Shown: one piece after another, positions 1-12,247 of the stretch
How the letters are laid out: each line of letters opens with the position of its first letter
Position numbering within the stretch: position 1 is the stretch's first letter
IMG/VR virus record: IMGVR_UViG_3300045988_151478
Location: 1-12,247 of that record
Length of the DNA: 12,247 nucleotides
Direction: 5' to 3' (one strand)
DNA from: a virus
Translations under genes and position numbers: made by a program
The notes under the pieces: generated by a model
What the model saw: only the letters and a program-made list of their open reading frames with translations
Told to the model about the DNA's origin: nothing
The model's database searches: none

Positions 1-94
1 ACAATTCTGACAATTATACAAATTGTATGAAAATTAGAAACAATTCTGACAATTATACAAATTGTATGAAAATTAGAAACAATTCTGACAATTA
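1..94 (+). repeat. 39-bp tandem direct repeat, 2 full copies (1-39, 40-78) plus a 16-nt partial third (79-94)
   Basis: The unit acaattctgacaattatacaaattgtatgaaaattagaa occurs twice, then acaattctgacaatta restarts. Each unit begins with the genome's terminal sequence and contains the inverted repeat ATACAA-a-TTGTAT. The right end has only 1 full plus 1 partial copy. Confidence 0.95.
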
Positions 95-132
95 ATCAAT
101 CTGTCTGACTTTAATACTTTTTTGTTAAACTG

Positions 133-161
133 TTGACTTTTATATGCAAAACTGGTACTAT
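133..161 (+). promoter_or_regulatory. Sigma-A-type promoter inside the left ITR, reading inward
   Basis: -35 TTGACT (133-138), 17-bp spacer, extended -10 TGgTACTAT (153-161). It is followed by the first + strand gene, which has a strong RBS. Confidence 0.7.
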
Positions 162-206
162 GATCTTGCAAACAAATAACAGGTCAGCAAGTAAAGGAGA
201 GAAATT

Positions 207-762: not shown

Positions 763-1410
763 ATGGCTTTAAAGGGTATAGAAAGAATCACAACCAAGGG
801 TCAGGTTATAAACCCATATAAAATCAATGAAAAAGAATTAGCCAGACTTTATACAAGTCTGGCTAAACGTCTAAATCAGCGTATGTTGCGTTTAGAGAGA
901 GCAGGATTCACTTCTGAATCCGGTGGTGCATACGCTGATTACAATGCAATTCTTAAAAAGTTTGACTATAATAAAAGAATAAGGGAAAAAATAAAGTTGG
1001 ATTACAGCGATCGGAACGTCCTTTATATGCAGATTTCTTCCATGCGTAAGCAGGTACAAATGATGCAGAATGTTCTAAAAGAAAAAAGTTCTACAGTGCC
1101 AGGGTGGAAATCAATCATAAAAAAGAGACGTGAGAAGCTGTCTGAATATGGACTTGAGTTTAAAGATACAAGTGAAATGAGTGCTTTTTTCCAGTCCTAT
1201 GCTTTTGAACTTATAAGTCTTTTATACTCTTCTGAACAGGCTGTAGAATTTGTTGGTAAAGCCTTGCGTGATGGCGACACAATGAGTGAAATAATTAGCA
1301 AATTAGAGGAGTTCAGAGATCGCACGGACATAGACAGAGCAGATGACGTAGCAAAAGAATTAGGTTTCTCAGGAGAAGCAGAAGCATTAAAATATACATA
1401 CAAGGGGTAA
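763..1410 (+). CDS. Candidate terminal protein (215 aa) for protein-primed replication
   Basis: It lies immediately upstream of the PolB gene, as phi29 gene 3 does. It is helical and charged, and its N-terminal KELARLYTSLAKRLNQRMLRLERAGF resembles phi29 TP AEYARLVKNTKAKIARTKKKYG. The start is taken as ATG 763 (RBS AAAGGAG at 751-757), not the TTG at 730 used by the ORF track, because the TTG start would overlap the upstream gene. Confidence 0.5.
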   Translation: MALKGIERITTKGQVINPYKINEKELARLYTSLAKRLNQRMLRLERAGFTSESGGAYADYNAILKKFDYNKRIREKIKLDYSDRNVLYMQISSMRKQVQMMQNVLKEKSSTVPGWKSIIKKRREKLSEYGLEFKDTSEMSAFFQSYAFELISLLYSSEQAVEFVGKALRDGDTMSEIISKLEEFRDRTDIDRADDVAKELGFSGEAEALKYTYKG

Positions 1411-8482: not shown

Positions 8483-8489
8483 ATTACCC

Positions 8490-8714
8490 CTACTTTCCAA
8501 TCTGTTCGATTAACGTATTCATCTTTTCCAGAGCGATCGTGTTATTTTTGATCACTTCTGAAAGTGTGTCAACTTCGTTTTTATGATCTTCGTTGAGTTT
8601 GTCAACTCGTGCGTTGGTCTGGTCATACATGTACTTAACAAAATATGCCATGGCGATACAACAAACGATAGGAAATGCATAGTTTCCCAAGATAGTTAAA
8701 AATGTTTCCATCAT
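8490..8714 (-). CDS. Holin candidate (74 aa, one N-terminal transmembrane segment plus charged coiled-coil tail)
   Basis: Hydrophobic stretch FLTILGNYAFPIVCCIAMAYFV followed by a highly charged C-terminus. It lies immediately upstream of the endolysin, with a strong RBS (GAGAGGAG). Confidence 0.6.
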   Translation of the reverse strand: MMETFLTILGNYAFPIVCCIAMAYFVKYMYDQTNARVDKLNEDHKNEVDTLSEVIKNNTIALEKMNTLIEQIGK

Positions 8715-9038: not shown

Positions 9039-10238
9039 TTATTTTCCCCCCTCCCCGATCACATAAAGGATTCCGTTATGTGTAAAGTTATTCCAGTAGT
9101 TTTTTCTGGAATGAACATACATGTTATAGTAGCCACCCCGGCTATTGAATGGAGTGGTTGAACTGTAGTCAAACTGCCAGTTAATACCCATTGCACGGCG
9201 ATCATAAAGAACGCCAAGGACATACGGTAAGTTAACCTCTGTTTTTGCCTGTTTTGCATGACCATCCGCTCCAATGATGGATGGTGTAATCTGGATCGCT
9301 GATTCGTTATCAGCGGACTGCCACCAGTTGACAAGTTCCTTATTTTCGATCTGTAAATTTTTATCGTCAAACACATACGGCATGGTCTGTGTTTCTGAGT
9401 TGATCCAGAAACTTGACAGCATCATAAGTCGCTGATTTTCTTTTCTTGTAAATCTCAAAAGGTTTTCAAACCCTGTAATCGTAAATCTGTACTTGGTTGA
9501 TCTCTCTGTCAACTTTTCAGAATCAAGCTTGATTCGAGCAACCACGAACGGCATAAACTTGTCACGGTGTTCAGAAAGCAACTGTTTTCTTGTATACTGT
9601 GTTCCATTCTCTGTGTTGAACTCATGTGCAAGGTCAACTTCCATTCCAAGAGATGATAAGCCTGCCATATAGTTGAGCATGGTAGCACGCCGTTCACTCT
9701 CTCTGTCTGTTTCTATATCGTTACGAAACTCAATCATAACTGCTTCGTAAAATCTGAGAAATTCGTCCTCACTTGAAAATGCAAGAGCCAGCTGGTCACG
9801 AAACCGTGTGATTGATCTCTGTAACAACTTTGTGCCGTAGAACTTGAGTTCAAGTACTTTCGGCTTATGAATCTTGTACATGTCGATGGATTTGCCATCG
9901 TCCAATGTGTTCGGATTCTGCTCTGTATTCCAGTCATCCGACTGCTCTGCGTCCATTGACAGGGACGTAATTTCACGGACAATAGCCCCCCACCGAACAT
10001 TTGTCTGTTCGACGGTCTTTAATTTACCGGTATAAGATTCATTTGAAAAATAAGTATATGCAAATACTGTGCTGATTGCATTCAGTGTGTTTTCTACCCC
10101 AGTACGTAATAAGGTTTCCCCTACGGAAACAAAAGAACTTGTATCAGTCGCTACAAGGTTAGAACGTCCGGTAGCCTGTTTAGCAACGGAATTGATAAGT
10201 GTATAGGCATCCTGCGGGTTTAAACTATTTACTGCCAA
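9039..10238 (-). CDS. Major capsid protein (phi29 gp8-like, 399 aa), TTG start
   Basis: It follows the scaffold-like gene. C-terminal NSRGGYYNMYVHSRKNYW resembles phi29 gp8 RNPRGLYWNYYYHVWQ. Only a TTG (10236-10238) is available near the RBS AGAAAGGAAG. There is an in-frame stop 2 codons upstream, and the first in-frame ATG is about 95 codons downstream. Confidence 0.8.
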   Translation of the reverse strand: MAVNSLNPQDAYTLINSVAKQATGRSNLVATDTSSFVSVGETLLRTGVENTLNAISTVFAYTYFSNESYTGKLKTVEQTNVRWGAIVREITSLSMDAEQSDDWNTEQNPNTLDDGKSIDMYKIHKPKVLELKFYGTKLLQRSITRFRDQLALAFSSEDEFLRFYEAVMIEFRNDIETDRESERRATMLNYMAGLSSLGMEVDLAHEFNTENGTQYTRKQLLSEHRDKFMPFVVARIKLDSEKLTERSTKYRFTITGFENLLRFTRKENQRLMMLSSFWINSETQTMPYVFDDKNLQIENKELVNWWQSADNESAIQITPSIIGADGHAKQAKTEVNLPYVLGVLYDRRAMGINWQFDYSSTTPFNSRGGYYNMYVHSRKNYWNNFTHNGILYVIGEGGK

Positions 10239-10255: not shown

Positions 10256-10549
10256 CTAATTCATGATTTTCATCATATCGTTAATAATGTCTGATTCTGT
10301 TCTTGGGGGATTTGTCCCCGTGTTCCCTGTGTTCTGGATATTTGAAGCCTGAATCGTAGCTGTTAATTTATTGATAGCATCAAGAACCATATCATTCTGA
10401 TTCTGGTTCTGGTTCTGATTCTGGTTCTGGTTCTGATTCTGGTTCTGGTTCTGATTCTGGTTCTGGTTCTGATTCTGCCCTGCAAATCCAAGAATTTCAG
10501 ATTTTGAAAAACCTGCATTTGCGAGTGCAACTACTTCTTCGATTTTCAT
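10256..10549 (-). CDS. Scaffolding-like protein (97 aa) with internal (Gln-Asn)14 repeat
   Basis: It lies immediately upstream of the capsid gene, and its size matches phi29 gp7 (98 aa). Short helical N- and C-terminal segments are joined by 28 residues of QN repeats. Confidence 0.5.
   Translation of the reverse strand: MKIEEVVALANAGFSKSEILGFAGQNQNQNQNQNQNQNQNQNQNQNQNQNQNDMVLDAINKLTATIQASNIQNTGNTGTNPPRTESDIINDMMKIMN
10394..10477 (-). repeat. In-frame hexanucleotide microsatellite, 14 units (CAGAAY on the coding strand) with an 18-nt higher-order period
   Basis: On the + strand the pattern is attctg attctg (gttctg gttctg attctg)x4, 84 nt in total. It encodes (QN)14 in the scaffold-like gene. 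Confidence 0.95.
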
Positions 10550-10702
10550 TTTTTGTTTTTTCTCCTTTCTATTGAGAAAAACGGATGTTAAGGGAAATAT
10601 ATGAAGGAAAGAAAAAATTAAGGGAAAAACTTACGGGTAATCATCCCTATAGCATCCGTTTCCGACGGTTGATGAAGCTGTTTTTCCCTTAAAATAAAAA
10701 TA
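10550..10702 (-). ncRNA. Structured non-coding region: candidate packaging-RNA analogue or riboregulator/attenuator
   Basis: This is by far the largest non-coding gap in the right-hand (- strand) transcription unit. A 13-bp perfect complement joins 10618-10630 (ttaagggaaaaac) and 10680-10692 (gtttttcccttaa). A 9-bp complement joins 10579-10587 (aaacggatg) and 10653-10661 (catccgttt). The two helices interleave. A second ttaagggaaa copy at 10588-10597 can compete for 10683-10692. On the - strand RNA, both helices are followed by U-runs. Confidence 0.35.
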
Positions 10703-11758
10703 TCACAAATTAAAAATTTTTTCAAGATAAAATTTTACAGTTAGGTTCTGATAGAAAATTCTATTACTAATAATATAGTTATATATCCATGAATAATAGT
10801 ATTTAAACTGTGATTTACCCAACTCACTGTCTGGAAAAACATCTTTGCACGTTCCGGAAATATGATCGCTTATGTAAAGTTTAGCTTCTTTTTTGTGTTC
10901 GTAAACTCCAATAGTTCCAATTACACAAATCAACCTGTAGTTTCTCAAATCTTCTGACTTTATAGAACTCGTATCATCATATGCAAAATCATTGTCAAGA
11001 GACATTTTTTCAAAATCTGTACTTCCGGTAAGAGCCTTATAAAGTGCTGTCTTTCTTTTCTTTTCTGAAATGGGGCTTTTATTAATCAAAATAATGATGA
11101 TTCCACGGTCTTTTAACATGGAAAACTCCTGTCCGGACTTCTTCATTTTTTCCAAGTTCGGAAGCAATCCGAAAGACTGAATAAGCGGGGAATCAAGTGT
11201 ATTACTATTTGAGACAACCCACCAACGAAAAGGCTTCTGACCAAGTAACTCACGGTTGGCAGAAATTGTTTCCACTCCGTTTAAAAATGCATCCTCTTCT
11301 CCTTTGATTCTTTTGTCAAGCTTCTCCGGGATAAACTCGTCATAGATTCCTTCCGAAAAACCGGATCCAGAAAAACCACGATTATTCATTAAACTGGTAA
11401 GACTAAACGCTTCCCCATGATAAACTTCCTCTCCTGCTTCATTGATCTCTTGCAAGGATACCCGGCTTTTTTCACCCTTTACCCTTTTAAAAAAGAAATT
11501 TTTGTGAAGATCATGATTTATGTCTATCCAAGGATTCATTGTATCGACCAGTACAGAATCTATTTGAGTAGTTTTTCTTCTCATATAGATTACTTTTTCA
11601 TCCTTTGAAAAAACATCCTCGATGAAATGTTTGAAGATTCCATATGTTTTTCCAGTACGTCTTGCACCTATGATAAAAATAAAATTTATATCGTTTTTTT
11701 CACATGTATTCACGATTTTAGGGATATCCAACCATCCATTTTTTTCGTATATATTCAT
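10703..11758 (-). CDS. DNA packaging (encapsidation) ATPase, phi29 gp16-like (351 aa)
   Basis: Walker A IIGARRTGKTYG resembles gp16 VIGARGIGKSYA. VIYMRRK resembles FIYVRRY. Walker B IYDEFIPEK resembles VFDEFIREK. VVSNSNTLDSP resembles CLSNAVSVVNP. EKMSLDNDFAYDD resembles GEMSLDNQFIGDN. The start is set at ATG 11758 (RBS AAGGTG 7 nt upstream). The track start at 11827 would overlap the upstream gene by 50 nt. Confidence 0.9.
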   Translation of the reverse strand: MNIYEKNGWLDIPKIVNTCEKNDINFIFIIGARRTGKTYGIFKHFIEDVFSKDEKVIYMRRKTTQIDSVLVDTMNPWIDINHDLHKNFFFKRVKGEKSRVSLQEINEAGEEVYHGEAFSLTSLMNNRGFSGSGFSEGIYDEFIPEKLDKRIKGEEDAFLNGVETISANRELLGQKPFRWWVVSNSNTLDSPLIQSFGLLPNLEKMKKSGQEFSMLKDRGIIIILINKSPISEKKRKTALYKALTGSTDFEKMSLDNDFAYDDTSSIKSEDLRNYRLICVIGTIGVYEHKKEAKLYISDHISGTCKDVFPDSELGKSQFKYYYSWIYNYIISNRIFYQNLTVKFYLEKIFNL

Positions 11759-11777
11759 TTTGATACACCTTATAGTT

Positions 11778-12074
11778 TTATGAAAACTGCTGTTTATTTG
11801 AGTTATCAGAATCCTTGCTGACTTCATTGTATTTTTTAATACAAGCTTCTTCTAACTGACCTGTAAACTCCTTATCCATTGAGTAAATTGAGTTGTAATA
11901 TTTCCCGTCTTTTCCTTTTGAAGATGGAAAAGAAAGAAATAACCCTTTTGACCCCTCTATAAGCGTCATACCTTTAATGACAAGCGTATTATCAAGGGCT
12001 AATTCGATAAAAGCTTTTGTTTTGCTGTTGCCATCATAAGGACGGCAGGTTATTTTGATAGATGATTTTAACAT
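11778..12074 (-). CDS. spoVG: SpoVG-family nucleic-acid-binding protein (98 aa)
   Basis: It aligns along its full length with B. subtilis SpoVG (97 aa). KAFIELALDNTLVIKGMTLIEGSKGLFLSFPSSKGKDGKYY matches [41 protein letters not shown]. It is the first gene after the right ITR promoter, with RBS AAAGGAGA. Confidence 0.75.
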   Translation of the reverse strand: MLKSSIKITCRPYDGNSKTKAFIELALDNTLVIKGMTLIEGSKGLFLSFPSSKGKDGKYYNSIYSMDKEFTGQLEEACIKKYNEVSKDSDNSNKQQFS

Positions 12075-12107: not shown

Positions 12108-12247
12108 TTATTTGTTTGCAAGATCATAGTACCAGTTTTGCATATAAAAGTCAACAGTTTAACAAAAAAGTATTAAAGTCAGACAGATTGATTAATTGTC
12201 AGAATTGTTTCTAATTTTCATACAATTTGTATAATTGTCAGAATTGT
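12108..12247. repeat. Right inverted terminal repeat (140 bp)
   Basis: Its reverse complement is identical to 40-179. It has one full 39-bp unit plus the 16-nt partial unit. Confidence 0.95.
12126..12154 (-). promoter_or_regulatory. Sigma-A-type promoter inside the right ITR, reading inward
   Basis: Exact mirror copy of the left promoter: -35 TTGACT (revcomp of 12149-12154), 17-bp spacer, -10 TACTAT (revcomp of 12126-12131) preceded by TGg. Confidence 0.7.

What the first reader, a model, noticed from the sequence alone, without database searches (positions are those of the whole stretch)
10550..10702. A ~150-nt structured non-coding gap directly after the packaging ATPase gene: pRNA analogue or RNA switch?
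Most other junctions in the - strand unit are overlapping or under 20 nt, yet 153 nt here are non-coding and rich in long-range complementarity. There is a 13-bp perfect helix (10618-10630 with 10680-10692) and a 9-bp helix (10579-10587 with 10653-10661). Their arms interleave, giving either a pseudoknot or mutually exclusive folds. A duplicated ttaagggaaa arm (10588-10597) can compete for the same partner. On the - strand transcript both helices are followed by U-runs, which is terminator-like. Hypothesis A: phi29-family motors need a 120-174-nt packaging RNA, and this element matches that size and sits next to the ATPase gene, which would make it a pRNA analogue in a distant relative. One caveat is that pRNA is only established for Bacillus phi29 relatives. 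Another is that this portal lacks the basic N-terminus that binds pRNA in phi29 gp10. Hypothesis B: it is a terminator/antiterminator switch that gates read-through from SpoVG and the ATPase into the scaffold, capsid and tail genes. That would supply the temporal control the twin ITR promoters cannot provide.
Basis: partly seen in the sequence, partly recalled or inferred. Interest (0 to 1): 0.7.

Follow-up and report, generated by a model that had tools for sequence, protein, structure and literature searches.

The report
Mini pRNA-like RNA heading late operon
The 153-base gap holds a strong promoter and a conserved 71-73-nt three-way-junction RNA. The RNA heads the head/tail gene operon in a whole clade of gut and Clostridium phi29-like phages. 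It has the helix-and-loop layout of the phi29 packaging RNA, so the idea that packaging RNAs exist outside Bacillus phages can now be tested.

Summary
Single-sequence folding is only marginal (z = -1.9); the real support is comparative.

On the - strand the gap contains:
- a sigma-A-type promoter (-35 at 10720-10725, -10 at 10697-10702), whose predicted start falls on the first base of the 13-bp helix;
- a three-way-junction RNA (10618-10690): P1, a P2 arm with an 8-nt 5'-side internal loop and a CGGAA pentaloop, and a P3 hairpin;
- a U6 tract;
- a leader segment (B') complementary to the RNA core.

Covariation supports every helix: 97.7% of cells are paired, against 31-44% when partners are slid. 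It also supports a pairing between the internal loop and the P3 loop.

Looser versions occur in at least 11 lineages, including cultured Amedibacillus phage AD70P3 and Clostridium perfringens phage phiCPV4. The RNA always follows a promoter and always heads the scaffold/capsid operon. It is not always next to the ATPase gene. In one lineage a tRNA-Gln follows it within 2-4 nt in 79 of 80 genomes, which implies release as a separate RNA.

The helix order matches the phi29 pRNA prohead-binding domain, but the Rfam pRNA model does not match it. Best reading, at about 45%: a miniature pRNA-type packaging RNA made from the late promoter. Main rival: a cis-acting leader.

The parts
10720..10725 (-). 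-35 box TTGAAA. Relatives have TTGACA or TTGATA. It lies inside the 3' end of the ATPase ORF.
   Evidence: Promoter scan, (10725..10697, 17-nt spacer, TG before the -10). Among 104 distinct homologues, 94 have TTGnnn-16..18-TAnnnT, 87 have a perfect TTGACA, and 89 have a 17-nt spacer.
10697..10702 (-). -10 box TATTTT, preceded by TG (extended -10), immediately after the ATPase stop codon at 10703-10705.
   Evidence: In 87 of 94 homologues, 6 nt separate the -10 from a 10-bp P1. This puts the predicted start (+7) on the first paired base, about 10690. The start site is inferred, not mapped.
10680..10692 (-). P1 5' arm, UUAAGGGAAAAAC. In a transcript starting near 10690, 11 of these bases are present.
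   Evidence: In the covariation count, 10 of 11 P1 pairs carry compensatory changes.
10651..10679 (-). P2 arm. P2a is AGC/GCU (10677-10679 with 10651-10653). The 8-nt 5'-side internal loop UUCAUCAA is at 10669-10676. P2b is CCGU/ACGG (10665-10668 with 10656-10659). The pentaloop CGGAA is at 10660-10664.
   Evidence: P2a has 3 of 3 pairs covarying and P2b has 2 of 4. The pentaloop C(G/A/C)GAA is kept in all but one (MT836587) of the gut lineages examined.
10635..10647 (-). P3 hairpin, GGG-AUGAUUA-CCC. The loop bases UGAU (10640-10643) are complementary to AUCA (10670-10673) in the P2 internal loop.
   Evidence: The loop-to-loop helix is 99.5% paired with 2 of 4 pairs covarying. Internal-loop type and loop type co-occur without exception in 105 distinct sequences. 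Across 10 lineages the combined p is 1.3e-5.
10618..10634 (-). J3/1 GUAA (10631-10634) and the P1 3' arm GUUUUUCCCUUAA (10618-10630).
   Evidence: The AA in J3/1 is invariant in alignment A2.
10612..10617 (-). U6 tract directly after P1. This is the predicted 3' end of a short RNA, by intrinsic termination.
   Evidence: At least 5 U occur in the 8 nt after P1 in 92 of 104 homologues. The terminator scan did not call it, but only because the 'loop' is a 49-nt folded insert.
10579..10597 (-). B' leader segment, UUUCCCUUAACAUCCGUUU. It pairs with the RNA core: CAUCCGUUU with AAACGGAUG (10653-10661), and UCCCU (10591-10595) with AGGGA (10644-10648). This pairing is mutually exclusive with P2 and P3.
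   Evidence: Duplex energy is -23.8 kcal/mol against a shuffled mean of -13.4, p = 0.005. Equivalent segments with different sequences occur in lineages W2, S and D (p = 0.002-0.017), with compensatory changes inside lineage D.
10557..10581 (-). Shine-Dalgarno-sequestering hairpin, UUUUUCUC (10574-10581) with GAGAAAAA (10557-10564). It overlaps the SD AAAGGAG (10562-10568). Its 5' strand overlaps B' by 3 nt.
   Evidence: (I13, 8 nt, 100% complementary). It is present in both sub-types of the window's own lineage and not evident in other lineages.
10256..10549 (-). First late gene: a 97-aa scaffold-like protein, start codon at 10547-10549. The major capsid protein gene follows at 9039-10238.
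   Evidence: Phi29_MCP. 'Scaffold' is inferred from position and size only; there is no family hit.
10703..11758 (-). Gp16-type DNA-packaging ATPase gene. Its last codons carry the -35 box.
   Evidence: Pfam Podovirus_Gp16, 3e-17. Gene callers start the gene at MNIYEKN, giving 351 aa.

Best explanation
SHOWN
- The gap is the head of the late (structural) transcription unit.
- It holds a conserved sigma-A-type promoter whose predicted start is the first base of helix P1.
- It encodes a compact three-way-junction RNA of 71-73 nt (window 10618-10690, - strand), made of P1, P2a / internal loop / P2b-CGGAA, and P3.
- A Watson-Crick pairing between the P2 internal loop and the P3 loop covaries across lineages.
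- P1 is followed by a U6 tract.
- A downstream leader segment (B') can refold the core.

INFERRED
- Host RNA polymerase starts at about 10690.
- A fraction of transcripts ends at the P1/U6 terminator and yields a free small RNA whose 5' and 3' ends are paired.
- The remaining polymerases read through and make the scaffold-capsid-tail mRNA. In that mRNA, B' pairs with the P2/P3 region and unfolds the junction, so the mRNA does not display the functional fold.

INFERRED FUNCTION
The free RNA is a miniature counterpart of the phi29 prohead (packaging) RNA. Its P2 and P3 arms would bind the portal vertex of the prohead. P1 would present the Gp16-type ATPase. Placing the RNA first in the late unit would couple its supply to prohead production.
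For: 1. The phage has the phi29-type packaging parts: Gp16 ATPase, phi29 connector and phi29 major capsid protein.

2. The structure is real. In alignment A3, 97.7% of cells are paired against 31-44% with slid partners, 18 of 25 pairs carry double changes, and every helix covaries.

3. The helix order matches the Rfam pRNA consensus: end-to-end helix, C helix, 9-nt 5'-side internal loop, 4-bp E hairpin, D hairpin, with AACC/GGUU loop pairing. Here the order is P1, P2a, a 7-10-nt 5'-side internal loop (0-2 nt on the 3' side), a 4-5-bp P2b hairpin, and P3.

4. The loop pairing changes by compensation: AUCA/UGAU, ACCA/UGGU, GCCA/UGGC, AUCC/GGAU, GCUA/UAGC, GUCG/CGAC and AAAAGGAA/UUCCUUUU.

5. A ~75-nt pRNA fragment is sufficient for motor binding and self-association (PMC4201828).

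6. The RNA has its own consensus promoter with the start on the first paired base. This resembles the phi29 A1 promoter and pRNA arrangement.

7. The RNA is probably a separate molecule. In the MT836587 lineage, 79 of 80 genomes have a tRNA-Gln starting 2-4 nt after P1 and no U-tract, so RNase P would cut the RNA free. Elsewhere a U-tract follows P1.

8. In C. perfringens phages the RNA is 108 nt, with a 13 + 7-bp bulged outer helix and a 10-bp C helix (z = -2.69). Three compensatory changes among phiCPV4, phiZP2 and CPS2 support it.

9. It is present in every lineage examined despite three or more genome arrangements.

10. P2a ranges from 3 to 10 bp while P3 stays at 3-4 bp. This fits a conserved intramolecular docking poorly; that reading is an inference.
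Against: - There is no sequence or covariance-model similarity to known pRNAs. RF00044 gives no hit even at E <= 10 in the window or in a 211-nt search of phiCPV4. My models R1 and R2 do not hit phi29 pRNA. The resemblance is therefore architectural only, and three-way junctions with loop-loop contacts are common in RNA.
- The outer helix is only 6-11 bp in the gut lineages. In phi29 the distal A helix is needed for ATPase binding (established knowledge).
- The junction strands differ. Here J1/2 is 0 nt and J3/1 is 4-5 nt. In phi29 the three strands (A/C, C/D, D/A) are 1, 3 and 0 nt.
- With P2a and P3 both 3-4 bp, the loop pairing could be intramolecular.
- The RNA always sits directly 5' of the late genes.
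- In phiCPV4 no terminator or tRNA follows it.
- The portal N-terminus (MWCPIGFDK...) lacks the basic residues that bind pRNA in phi29 gp10.
- No transcript, 3' end or prohead association has been observed.
Confidence: 0.45

Rival explanations
1. The element is a cis-acting leader of the late operon, with no trans role. It would work as an attenuator, a riboswitch-like aptamer or a protein-binding operator. The folded junction, perhaps stabilised by a ligand or a phage protein, closes P1, and P1 plus the U-tract terminates transcription. Read-through transcripts are locked in an alternative fold by B', which may also tune translation of the first late gene.
For: - The element is always immediately upstream of the late genes and behind their promoter, in every genome arrangement seen.
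- A U-tract follows P1 in most lineages.
- The complementarity between B' and the core is significant in lineages W, S and D. It covaries inside lineage D: GUCACGGG/CCCGUGAC, GUCAUGGG/CCCAUGAC and GCCACGG/CCGUGGC.
- The loops are strongly conserved (CNGAA, and AA in J3/1), as in ligand pockets.
- The matched heights of the internal loop and the P3 loop would allow an intramolecular, aptamer-like contact.
- In the window lineage, an SD-sequestering hairpin abuts B'.
Against: - B' lies downstream of the U-tract, so it cannot influence termination at P1.
- No alternative pairing for the P1 arms is conserved.
- B' is positioned relative to the core, 8-35 nt after P1. It is not positioned relative to the SD, which lies 4 to about 75 nt further on.
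- B' is absent in lineage C, AD70P3 and MT836155.
- The SD hairpin forms in both folds in L007.
- In the MT836587 lineage a tRNA separates the RNA from the mRNA and there is no U-tract. Neither termination nor cis control of translation is possible there, yet the RNA is conserved and shows compensatory changes.
- No Rfam riboswitch or leader family matches.
- The core pattern is absent from 185,579 bacterial and archaeal genomes.
Confidence: 0.22
2. The element is a discrete trans-acting small RNA with a non-packaging role. It could be a regulatory sRNA that pairs with the B' site of late mRNAs, or a decoy or anti-defence RNA that binds a host factor.
For: - It has its own promoter, paired ends, and a U-tract or tRNA-defined 3' end.
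- B' is a ready-made complementary target of 8-13 bp or more, and could be bound in trans as well as in cis.
- It is conserved in all lineages examined.
Against: - The pairing segment of the RNA is buried in P2 and P3 rather than exposed.
- B' is missing in several lineages that keep the RNA.
- Nothing points to a particular host target.
- This reading does not explain the pRNA-like arm and loop layout or the covarying loop pair.
Confidence: 0.13
3. The region is ordinary punctuation: a terminator for the SpoVG-ATPase transcript, a promoter for the late genes, and a 5'-terminal stem that merely stabilises the late mRNA against 5'-end-dependent decay.
For: - P1 extends by A-U pairs upstream of the predicted start in many W, S and D sequences (an A-tract facing a U-tract, helices of 14-17 bp). 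That is what a terminator for upstream transcripts looks like.
- The 5' end is buried in a helix.
- Single-sequence folding is only z = -1.9.
Against: - A stabiliser or terminator needs only a hairpin. Here a 49-nt insert with two arms, conserved loops and a covarying tertiary or kissing pair is kept over ATPase divergence down to about 25-30% identity.
- The RNA is present where no gene lies upstream: lineage C, where it lies 91 nt from the genome end in L154.
- It is also present where no U-tract follows.
Confidence: 0.07
4. The element is a put-like, cis-acting RNA that binds the transcribing RNA polymerase and makes it resistant to terminators along the ~9-kb late operon.
For: - It is a promoter-proximal, compact, roughly 70-nt multi-helix RNA at the start of a long operon.
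- It acts before any processing, so it is compatible with the tRNA lineage.
Against: - There is no similarity to known processive-antitermination RNAs in Rfam.
- P1 plus the U-tract looks like a stop signal rather than a read-through signal.
- This reading needs neither B' nor the variable loop pairing.
- It is purely an analogy from memory of HK022 put.
Confidence: 0.05

Closest known systems
phi29 prohead/packaging RNA (pRNA; Rfam RF00044 Phage_pRNA)
   Same: - The phage family matches: Gp16 ATPase, phi29 connector and phi29 capsid protein.
- The RNA has its own promoter, and the 5' end is paired to the 3' end.
- It is a three-way junction.
- Arm 1 is a helix, then a 5'-side internal loop of 7-10 nt, then a 4-5-bp hairpin. 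Arm 2 is a short hairpin.
- The internal loop and the arm-2 loop are Watson-Crick complementary and covary. Lineage D even uses ACCA/UGGU, against phi29's AACC/GGUU.
- The core size equals the ~75-nt minimal prohead-binding domain (PMC4201828).
   Different: - There is no covariance-model or sequence match.
- The outer helix is 6-11 bp instead of about 25 bp with bulges. The exception is phiCPV4-type RNAs, at 20 bp and 108 nt.
- The junction strand lengths differ.
- The pentaloop CNGAA is strongly conserved, whereas pRNAs keep little sequence.
- It is encoded at the head of the late operon rather than at a genome end behind an early promoter.
- A leader segment (B') can unfold it.
- The portal lacks a basic N-terminus.
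- pRNA has so far been regarded as unique to phi29 and related Bacillus phages (PMC11476376, PMC6266182).
Lambda PR'-6S RNA-tR' arrangement (from established knowledge, not tested here)
   Same: A constitutive strong promoter at the head of the late genes is followed closely by a terminator. A short RNA is therefore made, and late genes require read-through.
   Different: - Lambda read-through depends on the Q protein acting at the promoter, and the lambda 6S RNA has no known function.
- Here the short RNA is a conserved, covarying three-way junction, and no Q-like factor is evident.
Three-way-junction riboswitch aptamers with loop-loop contacts (for example the purine riboswitch)
   Same: - The size is about 70 nt.
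- P1 closes a three-way junction.
- Two arms are linked by base pairs between loops.
- It sits in a 5' leader, with a U-tract after P1 and a downstream competing segment.
   Different: - No Rfam riboswitch matches.
- The competing segment lies after the U-tract.
- The loop pairing is hypervariable rather than fixed.
- A tRNA can separate the RNA from the mRNA.
- It is found only in phages.
Non-coding RNAs matured by an adjacent tRNA through RNase P/Z processing (general principle, from knowledge)
   Same: In the MT836587 lineage the RNA is followed within 2-4 nt by a tRNA-Gln in 79 of 80 genomes. tRNA processing would define its 3' end.
   Different: This applies to only one lineage. The window itself uses a U6 tract instead.

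Membership tests
phi29 pRNA (RF00044) | Match to the family covariance model | tested here: not met
   No RF00044 hit in the window at E <= 10. None at the gathering score in seven related genomes. None at E <= 10 in a 211-nt search of the phiCPV4 element. As a positive control, phi29 scores 145 bits.
phi29 pRNA (RF00044) | 5' and 3' ends paired in an outer (A) helix that closes a three-way junction | tested here: met
   P1 is 11 bp, and 10 of 11 pairs show compensatory changes. The promoter geometry puts +1 on the first paired base. The ends themselves are predicted, not mapped.
phi29 pRNA (RF00044) | Arm order: C helix, 5'-side internal (right-hand) loop, E hairpin, then D hairpin with the left-hand loop | tested here: met
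   Side-by-side table of 12 lineage representatives and phi29, compared with the Rfam consensus structure.
phi29 pRNA (RF00044) | Right-hand and left-hand loops are complementary and covary | tested here: met
   The helix is 99.5% paired with 2 of 4 pairs covarying. There are no exceptions in 105 distinct sequences. Across 10 lineages, Fisher p = 1.3e-5.
phi29 pRNA (RF00044) | The loop pairing is intermolecular and forms a ring | not testable with these tools
   Covariation cannot separate cis from trans pairing. The only hint is that P2a varies from 3 to 10 bp while P3 stays fixed. Resolving this needs two-mutant complementation or native gels.
phi29 pRNA (RF00044) | Length of 117-174 nt with a long, bulged A helix that binds gp16 | tested here: not met
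   The window RNA is 71-73 nt and P1 is 11 bp. The phiCPV4-type relative comes closer, at 108 nt with a 13 + 7-bp outer helix.
phi29 pRNA (RF00044) | Discrete RNA bound to proheads and required for DNA packaging | not testable with these tools
   The support is indirect only: a U-tract after P1 and a tRNA-Gln 2-4 nt after P1 in 79 of 80 genomes of one lineage.
phi29 pRNA (RF00044) | Connector with a basic N-terminus (RKR in gp10) as the RNA docking site | tested here: not met
   The window portal begins MWCPIGFDKINIISNYF, with no basic cluster. The requirement itself is recalled from the phi29 literature.
Intrinsic (factor-independent) terminator | Stable stem directly followed by a U-tract | tested here: met
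   A 13-bp perfect stem is followed by U6. At least 5 U occur in the next 8 nt in 92 of 104 homologues.
Intrinsic (factor-independent) terminator | Short loop (3-8 nt) and G+C-rich stem base | tested here: not met
   The 'loop' is a 49-nt two-arm insert, and the stem base is A-U rich. The terminator scan does not call it. Some lineages lack the U-tract altogether.
Transcription-attenuation riboswitch or leader | Mutually exclusive terminator and antiterminator pairings upstream of the U-tract | tested here: not met
   The only conserved competing segment (B') lies 8-35 nt after the U-tract.
Transcription-attenuation riboswitch or leader | Membership of a described RNA family | tested here: not met
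   All 4227 Rfam 15 models were searched at E <= 10. There is no hit on the - strand of the gap.

The most novel reading that the evidence does not exclude
Packaging RNAs are not peculiar to Bacillus phages. A reduced pRNA, with a 62-73-nt core (108 nt in Clostridium perfringens phages), is encoded as the first product of the late transcription unit throughout Guelinviridae-like phi29 relatives of gut Firmicutes. It is released by its own terminator or by an adjacent tRNA. In read-through mRNA it is deliberately unfolded by an 'anti-pRNA' leader segment (B'). One promoter would then supply both the motor RNA and the structural proteins.
Probability: 0.4. Interest if true: 0.9.

Novelty: new variant of a known kind. 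Interest (0 to 1): 0.8.

Why it matters
pRNA is the only natural RNA known to form a ring that is part of a DNA-packaging motor. It is a workhorse of RNA nanotechnology. It is currently described as unique to phi29 and its Bacillus relatives (PMC11476376, PMC4201828).

All phi29-like phages share the Gp16-type ATPase. Whether those outside Bacillus need an RNA adaptor has therefore been an open question.

This element is a concrete candidate. It is supported by covariation, present in hundreds of gut-phage genomes, and present in cultured phages: Amedibacillus AD70P3 and C. perfringens phiCPV4, phiZP2 and CPS2. The question is now testable with Northern blots, prohead RNA extraction and loop-swap genetics.

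If the RNA proves to be a cis-acting leader instead, it is still an undescribed, widespread structured RNA that controls the late genes of the smallest tailed phages. It would also give a much smaller three-way-junction scaffold (about 70 nt) with programmable 4-8-bp loop pairing.

Tried and rejected
1. A promoter inside the RNA. The W2 sub-lineage reads TGCTATAAT, a perfect extended -10, between P2 and P3. The 66%-identity lineage has TGCCATGGGG there, so I rejected this as lineage-specific.

2. Linkage to the ATPase gene. Rejected, because the RNA is far from the ATPase gene in lineage C, MT835998 and phiCPV4.

3. SpoVG as a dedicated partner. SpoVG is detected in lineages W and S and in phiCPV4. 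It is not detected in the ORFs upstream of the ATPase gene in lineage C or AD70P3, so there is no strict co-occurrence.

4. Peptide coding. Only 23-35-aa ORFs overlap the gap, and paired indels in the two arms break their frame.

5. B' as a Shine-Dalgarno switch. The SD hairpin exists only in the window lineage and forms in both folds. The distance from B' to the SD is not conserved.

6. A bacterial origin or a riboswitch-like distribution. The core pattern has 0 hits in GTDB representative genomes and 58 hits in metagenomes, all on contigs no longer than 15 kb (most about 12-13.5 kb); every record title that names a source says human gut.

7. Cp-1. Its mapped late-promoter leader does not fold like this RNA. 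The 1996 Cp-1 paper, said to report a pRNA (PMC6266182), is not in the library.

8. My covariance models R1 and R2. They detect lineages W, S, D and C, and weakly MT835998 and MT836263. They miss AD70P3, MT835901, MT836155, MT836587 and phiCPV4. I assigned those by promoter position plus fold, then checked them with a script. They are less secure.

9. A contig look-up for transcript-like ends returned only full genomes.
Full report
CONTEXT

The window is a complete phi29-like podovirus genome of about 12.2 kb with inverted terminal repeats. On the - strand the gene order is:
- a SpoVG homologue (11778-12074);
- a Gp16-type packaging ATPase (10703-11758 or 11827);
- the 153-nt gap;
- a 97-aa scaffold-like gene (10256-10549);
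- a Phi29_MCP capsid gene (9039-10238);
- tail, portal (Phage_connector) and lysis genes.

A protein-primed-type DNA polymerase B gene is on the + strand. The closest GenBank record is an unannotated human-faecal contig, MT836115, with 66% ATPase identity. Cultured relatives are the Amedibacillus phages AD70P2 and AD70P3, with 33% ATPase identity.

THE OBSERVATION

- the 13-bp perfect repeat 10618-10630 / 10680-10692;
- the second helix 10579-10587 / 10653-10661, extendable to 11 of 12 positions;
- the duplicated TTAAGGGAAA;
- the interleaved arm order;
- both U-runs.

On its own the fold is only marginally better than shuffles (z = -1.87 on either strand). No Rfam 15 family matches the - strand of the gap, even at E <= 10. 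That includes the pRNA family.

COMPARATIVE ANATOMY

I scanned IMG/VR with the ATPase protein and with a core DNA pattern, and scanned metagenomes with the core pattern. Together with the window these gave 107 distinct full-length versions in four lineages:
- W, the window's own lineage (90-95% ATPase identity);
- S (about 66%);
- D (L024 and L102 types);
- C (about 40%).

The consensus fold is P1 (10-11 bp), stacked directly on P2a (3-4 bp). Next come a 7-8-nt internal loop on the 5' side only, P2b (4 bp) capped by the pentaloop C(G/A)GAA, a short J2/3, P3 (3-4 bp with a 5-7-nt loop), and J3/1 NNAA(G/C).

On the 55 distinct rows of alignment A3, 97.7% of pair cells are standard pairs, against 31-44% when the 3' partners are slid by 1-3 columns. 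Eighteen of 25 pairs carry compensatory double changes. No shuffle reaches the observed covariation score (the earlier on A2 agrees).

P1 is almost completely resubstituted between lineages:
- UAAGGGAAAAC/GUUUUCCCUUA;
- AAGGGGAAGC/GUUUCCCCUU;
- UAGGUCAACG/CGUUGACCUA;
- UAGGUCAGAG/CUCUGACCUA;
- UAGGAAAGCA/UGCUUUCCUA;
- AUAGGCAGGA/UCCUGCCUAU.

It joins the P2 internal loop to the P3 loop. The observed states are AUCA (or AUCG) with UGAU, ACCA with UGGU, and GCCA with UGGC. One C-lineage genome (L168) has reverted to ACCA/UGGU. Across 105 distinct sequences the two loop types co-occur without exception, and this helix is 99.5% paired.

A PROMOTER SITS IN THE GAP

Directly upstream of P1 is a sigma-70/sigma-A-type promoter.
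- In the window it reads TTGAAA-17-TATTTT with a TG extension, at 10725-10697.
- In the S-lineage genome L093 it reads TTGACA-17-TATATT. That is the third-best match in the whole genome, after the two 12/12 promoters in the terminal repeats.
- Of 104 distinct sequences, 94 have TTGnnn-16..18-TAnnnT, 87 have a perfect TTGACA, and 89 have a 17-nt spacer.
- In 87 of the 94, exactly 6 nt separate the -10 from a 10-bp P1.

The canonical start (+7) is therefore the first paired base, about 10690 in the window. This start is an inference from geometry; no transcript data are available. The idea that only the ITR promoters drive the late genes does not hold.

THE RNA GOES WITH THE LATE OPERON, NOT WITH THE ATPase GENE

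- In lineage S the whole genome is colinear, and the SpoVG-ATPase-RNA-scaffold block is internal.
- In lineage C the ATPase gene sits with the polymerase genes on the other strand and ends in an ordinary hairpin terminator. The RNA lies 91 nt from the far genome end in L154, again behind TTGACA-17-TATTTT (TATATT in some genomes) and directly upstream of the scaffold-like and capsid genes.
- In MT835998 the RNA (R2 model, 24 bits, E = 3e-4) is at 1049-1124. It precedes a small membrane-protein ORF, then scaffold and capsid genes. The ATPase gene is 8 kb away on the other strand.
- In C. perfringens phage phiCPV4 the RNA lies in a 213-nt gap between the SpoVG gene and the scaffold-like gp22 and major head protein genes. 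The terminase gene is elsewhere.

MORE DISTANT MEMBERS

My covariance models do not reach every relative. However, the region after the promoter folds into the same layout in AD70P3, MT836263, MT835901, MT836155 and MT836587. Each has a fresh complementary loop pair:
- AUCC/GGAU (AD70P3);
- GCUA/UAGC (MT835998);
- GUCG/CGAC (MT836155);
- AAAAGGAA/UUCCUUUU, 8 bp (MT835901);
- GCCA/UGGC (phiCPV4).

Shuffling both loops in each of 10 lineages gives a combined p of 1.3e-5.

The phiCPV4 version is larger, at 108 nt from the predicted start. It has:
- an outer helix of 13 + 7 bp with an internal loop;
- a 10-bp first-arm helix;
- a 5-nt 5'-side internal loop;
- a GGG-GUGGAA-CCC hairpin;
- a GGG(U)-UGGC-(A)CCC hairpin.

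Its minimum free energy is -51.8 kcal/mol with z = -2.69. Among phiCPV4, phiZP2 and CPS2, three substitutions are compensatory: A31-U59 to G-C, G13-C96 to A-U, and C30-G60 to A-U. These distant assignments rest on position plus fold, and are less secure than lineages W, S, D and C.

THE 3' END

P1 is followed by at least 5 U in the next 8 nt in 92 of 104 sequences; the window has U6. The element fails a standard terminator scan only because its 'loop' is the 49-nt two-arm insert.

In the MT836587 lineage there is no U-tract. Instead a tRNA-Gln starts 2-4 nt after P1, in 79 of 80 IMG/VR genomes. The SD and the scaffold-like gene follow the tRNA. Within that lineage P2b and P3 show compensatory changes (CACU/AGUG to CGCU/AGCG; GUCG/CGAC to GUUG/CAAC and GUCA/UGAC), while the tRNA sequence drifts. 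tRNA 5' processing would release the upstream RNA. At least there, the RNA cannot act as a leader attached to the mRNA.

THE SECOND HELIX (B-B')

It cannot coexist with P2 and P3.

Its energy beats 1000 leader shuffles in six representatives:
- window, p = 0.005;
- L007, p = 0.002 (about 25 bp; the minimum-energy fold of the full leader prefers it);
- S lineage, p = 0.016;
- three D-lineage representatives, p = 0.002-0.017.

The partner segment differs by lineage. In W it covers the P2 3' strand through the P3 5' strand. In S, MT835998 and MT835901 it covers the P2b loop (GCCGGAAG/CUUCCGGC). In D it covers P2a-3'/J2/3/P3-5'. Inside lineage D it changes by compensation: GUCACGGG/CCCGUGAC, GUCAUGGG/CCCAUGAC and GCCACGG/CCGUGGC.

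It is absent or not significant in lineage C, MT836263, MT836155 and AD70P3. B' always lies after the U-tract and keeps its distance to the RNA rather than to the SD. It therefore cannot be an antiterminator and is a poor candidate for an SD switch. The simplest reading is that it refolds the RNA in read-through transcripts.

COMPARISON WITH pRNA

I ran Rfam on phi29 itself to obtain the curated consensus:
- A helix;
- 1-nt junction;
- C helix of 9 bp;
- 9-nt internal loop on the 5' side only (GAUUAAACC, whose AACC is the right-hand loop);
- E helix of 4 bp with a 6-nt loop;
- UUU junction;
- D helix of 6 bp with the loop UGGUU (GGUU is the left-hand loop);
- A helix 3' strand.

The present RNA has the same elements in the same order, and its two loops covary as the pRNA loops do (PMC12670572 describes that covariation for Bacillus phages). 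A ~75-nt pRNA fragment folds independently, binds the motor and self-associates (PMC4201828); the core here is 62-73 nt. As in phi29, where promoter A1 sits at 328-356 and the pRNA match begins at 318, a promoter fires at about the first paired base.

Against membership:
- no model or sequence similarity in either direction;
- a short outer helix in the gut lineages;
- different junction strand lengths;
- no basic portal N-terminus;
- a position at the head of the late operon.

The literature I could search treats pRNA as restricted to phi29 and related Bacillus phages, and reports none for Guelinviridae (PMC11476376). A pRNA has been claimed for Cp-1, but a covariance model could not confirm it (PMC6266182).

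VERDICT

Shown:
- a real, covariation-supported, phage-specific structured RNA with its own promoter at the head of the late operon;
- it is widespread in gut and Clostridium phi29-like phages;
- it is absent from Rfam and from 185,579 prokaryotic genomes.

Inferred, at about 45%: it is released as a small RNA and serves as a reduced pRNA-type packaging RNA. A purely cis-acting leader (about 22%), another trans-acting role (about 13%), plain terminator-plus-promoter punctuation (about 7%) and a put-like antiterminator (about 5%) remain possible.

Hypothesis B is largely not supported.

Noticed in passing
window 10395-10477 (- strand, codons within gene 10256-10549): A perfect 18-nt tandem repeat (4.6 copies) encodes an (NQ) run of about 27 residues in the middle of the scaffold-like protein. 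Homologues carry different low-complexity repeats at the same place: TQP repeats in L024 and AAP repeats in MT835998.
   Followed up: partly
window 1-179 and 12108-12247: The terminal inverted repeat is 140 nt at 100% identity but is offset: 40-179 pairs with 12108-12247. The left end carries an extra 39-nt direct duplication, with promoter-like sites at 7-34 and 46-73. This is either a real terminal duplication or an assembly artefact.
   Followed up: no
L236 (MT836587) 8489-8564 and L244-L323: A tRNA-Gln (anticodon UUG, rarely CUG) sits between the RNA and the scaffold gene in 79 of 80 genomes of one lineage. The tRNA sequence varies much more than the adjacent RNA.
   Followed up: partly
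L093, L154, L232, L237 compared with the window: At least four genome arrangements exist in this clade. The polymerase module is inverted or colinear, and the ATPase gene travels either with the late genes or with the replication genes. The block of promoter, RNA, scaffold and capsid stays intact throughout.
   Followed up: partly
L007-L014, position equivalent to window 10646-10654: The W2 sub-lineage has an AU insertion that creates TGCTATAAT, a perfect extended -10, inside the RNA between P2 and P3. It is not conserved in other lineages.
   Followed up: yes
window 781-872 (+) and 838-866: There is a weak RAGATH-23 match (25.6 bits, E = 0.19, far below gathering) and a 12-bp hairpin with a T-run on the - strand. 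Both lie inside ORF 730-1410.
   Followed up: no
L238 (CPS2) 176-298: The CPS2 GenBank record annotates a 40-aa 'hypothetical protein' (CPS2_5) over the conserved RNA region. It is probably a spurious ORF.
   Followed up: no
L232 about 1163 onward; L233 about 7916 downward: In MT835998 and MT836263 the first gene after the RNA is a small hydrophobic protein (MEEISTIIQQVGFPIAAFLLMW...), not the scaffold gene.
   Followed up: no
window 11758-11827: The longest ATPase ORF (374 aa) overlaps the SpoVG gene. Independent gene calls and all homologue alignments start at MNIYEKN (351 aa, window 11758).
   Followed up: partly
window 11778-12074; L237 16344-16655: A SpoVG homologue lies immediately upstream of the RNA (phiCPV4) or upstream of the ATPase gene and then the RNA (lineages W and S). 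It is not detected in lineage C or AD70P3, so a specific SpoVG-RNA partnership is not supported.
   Followed up: partly
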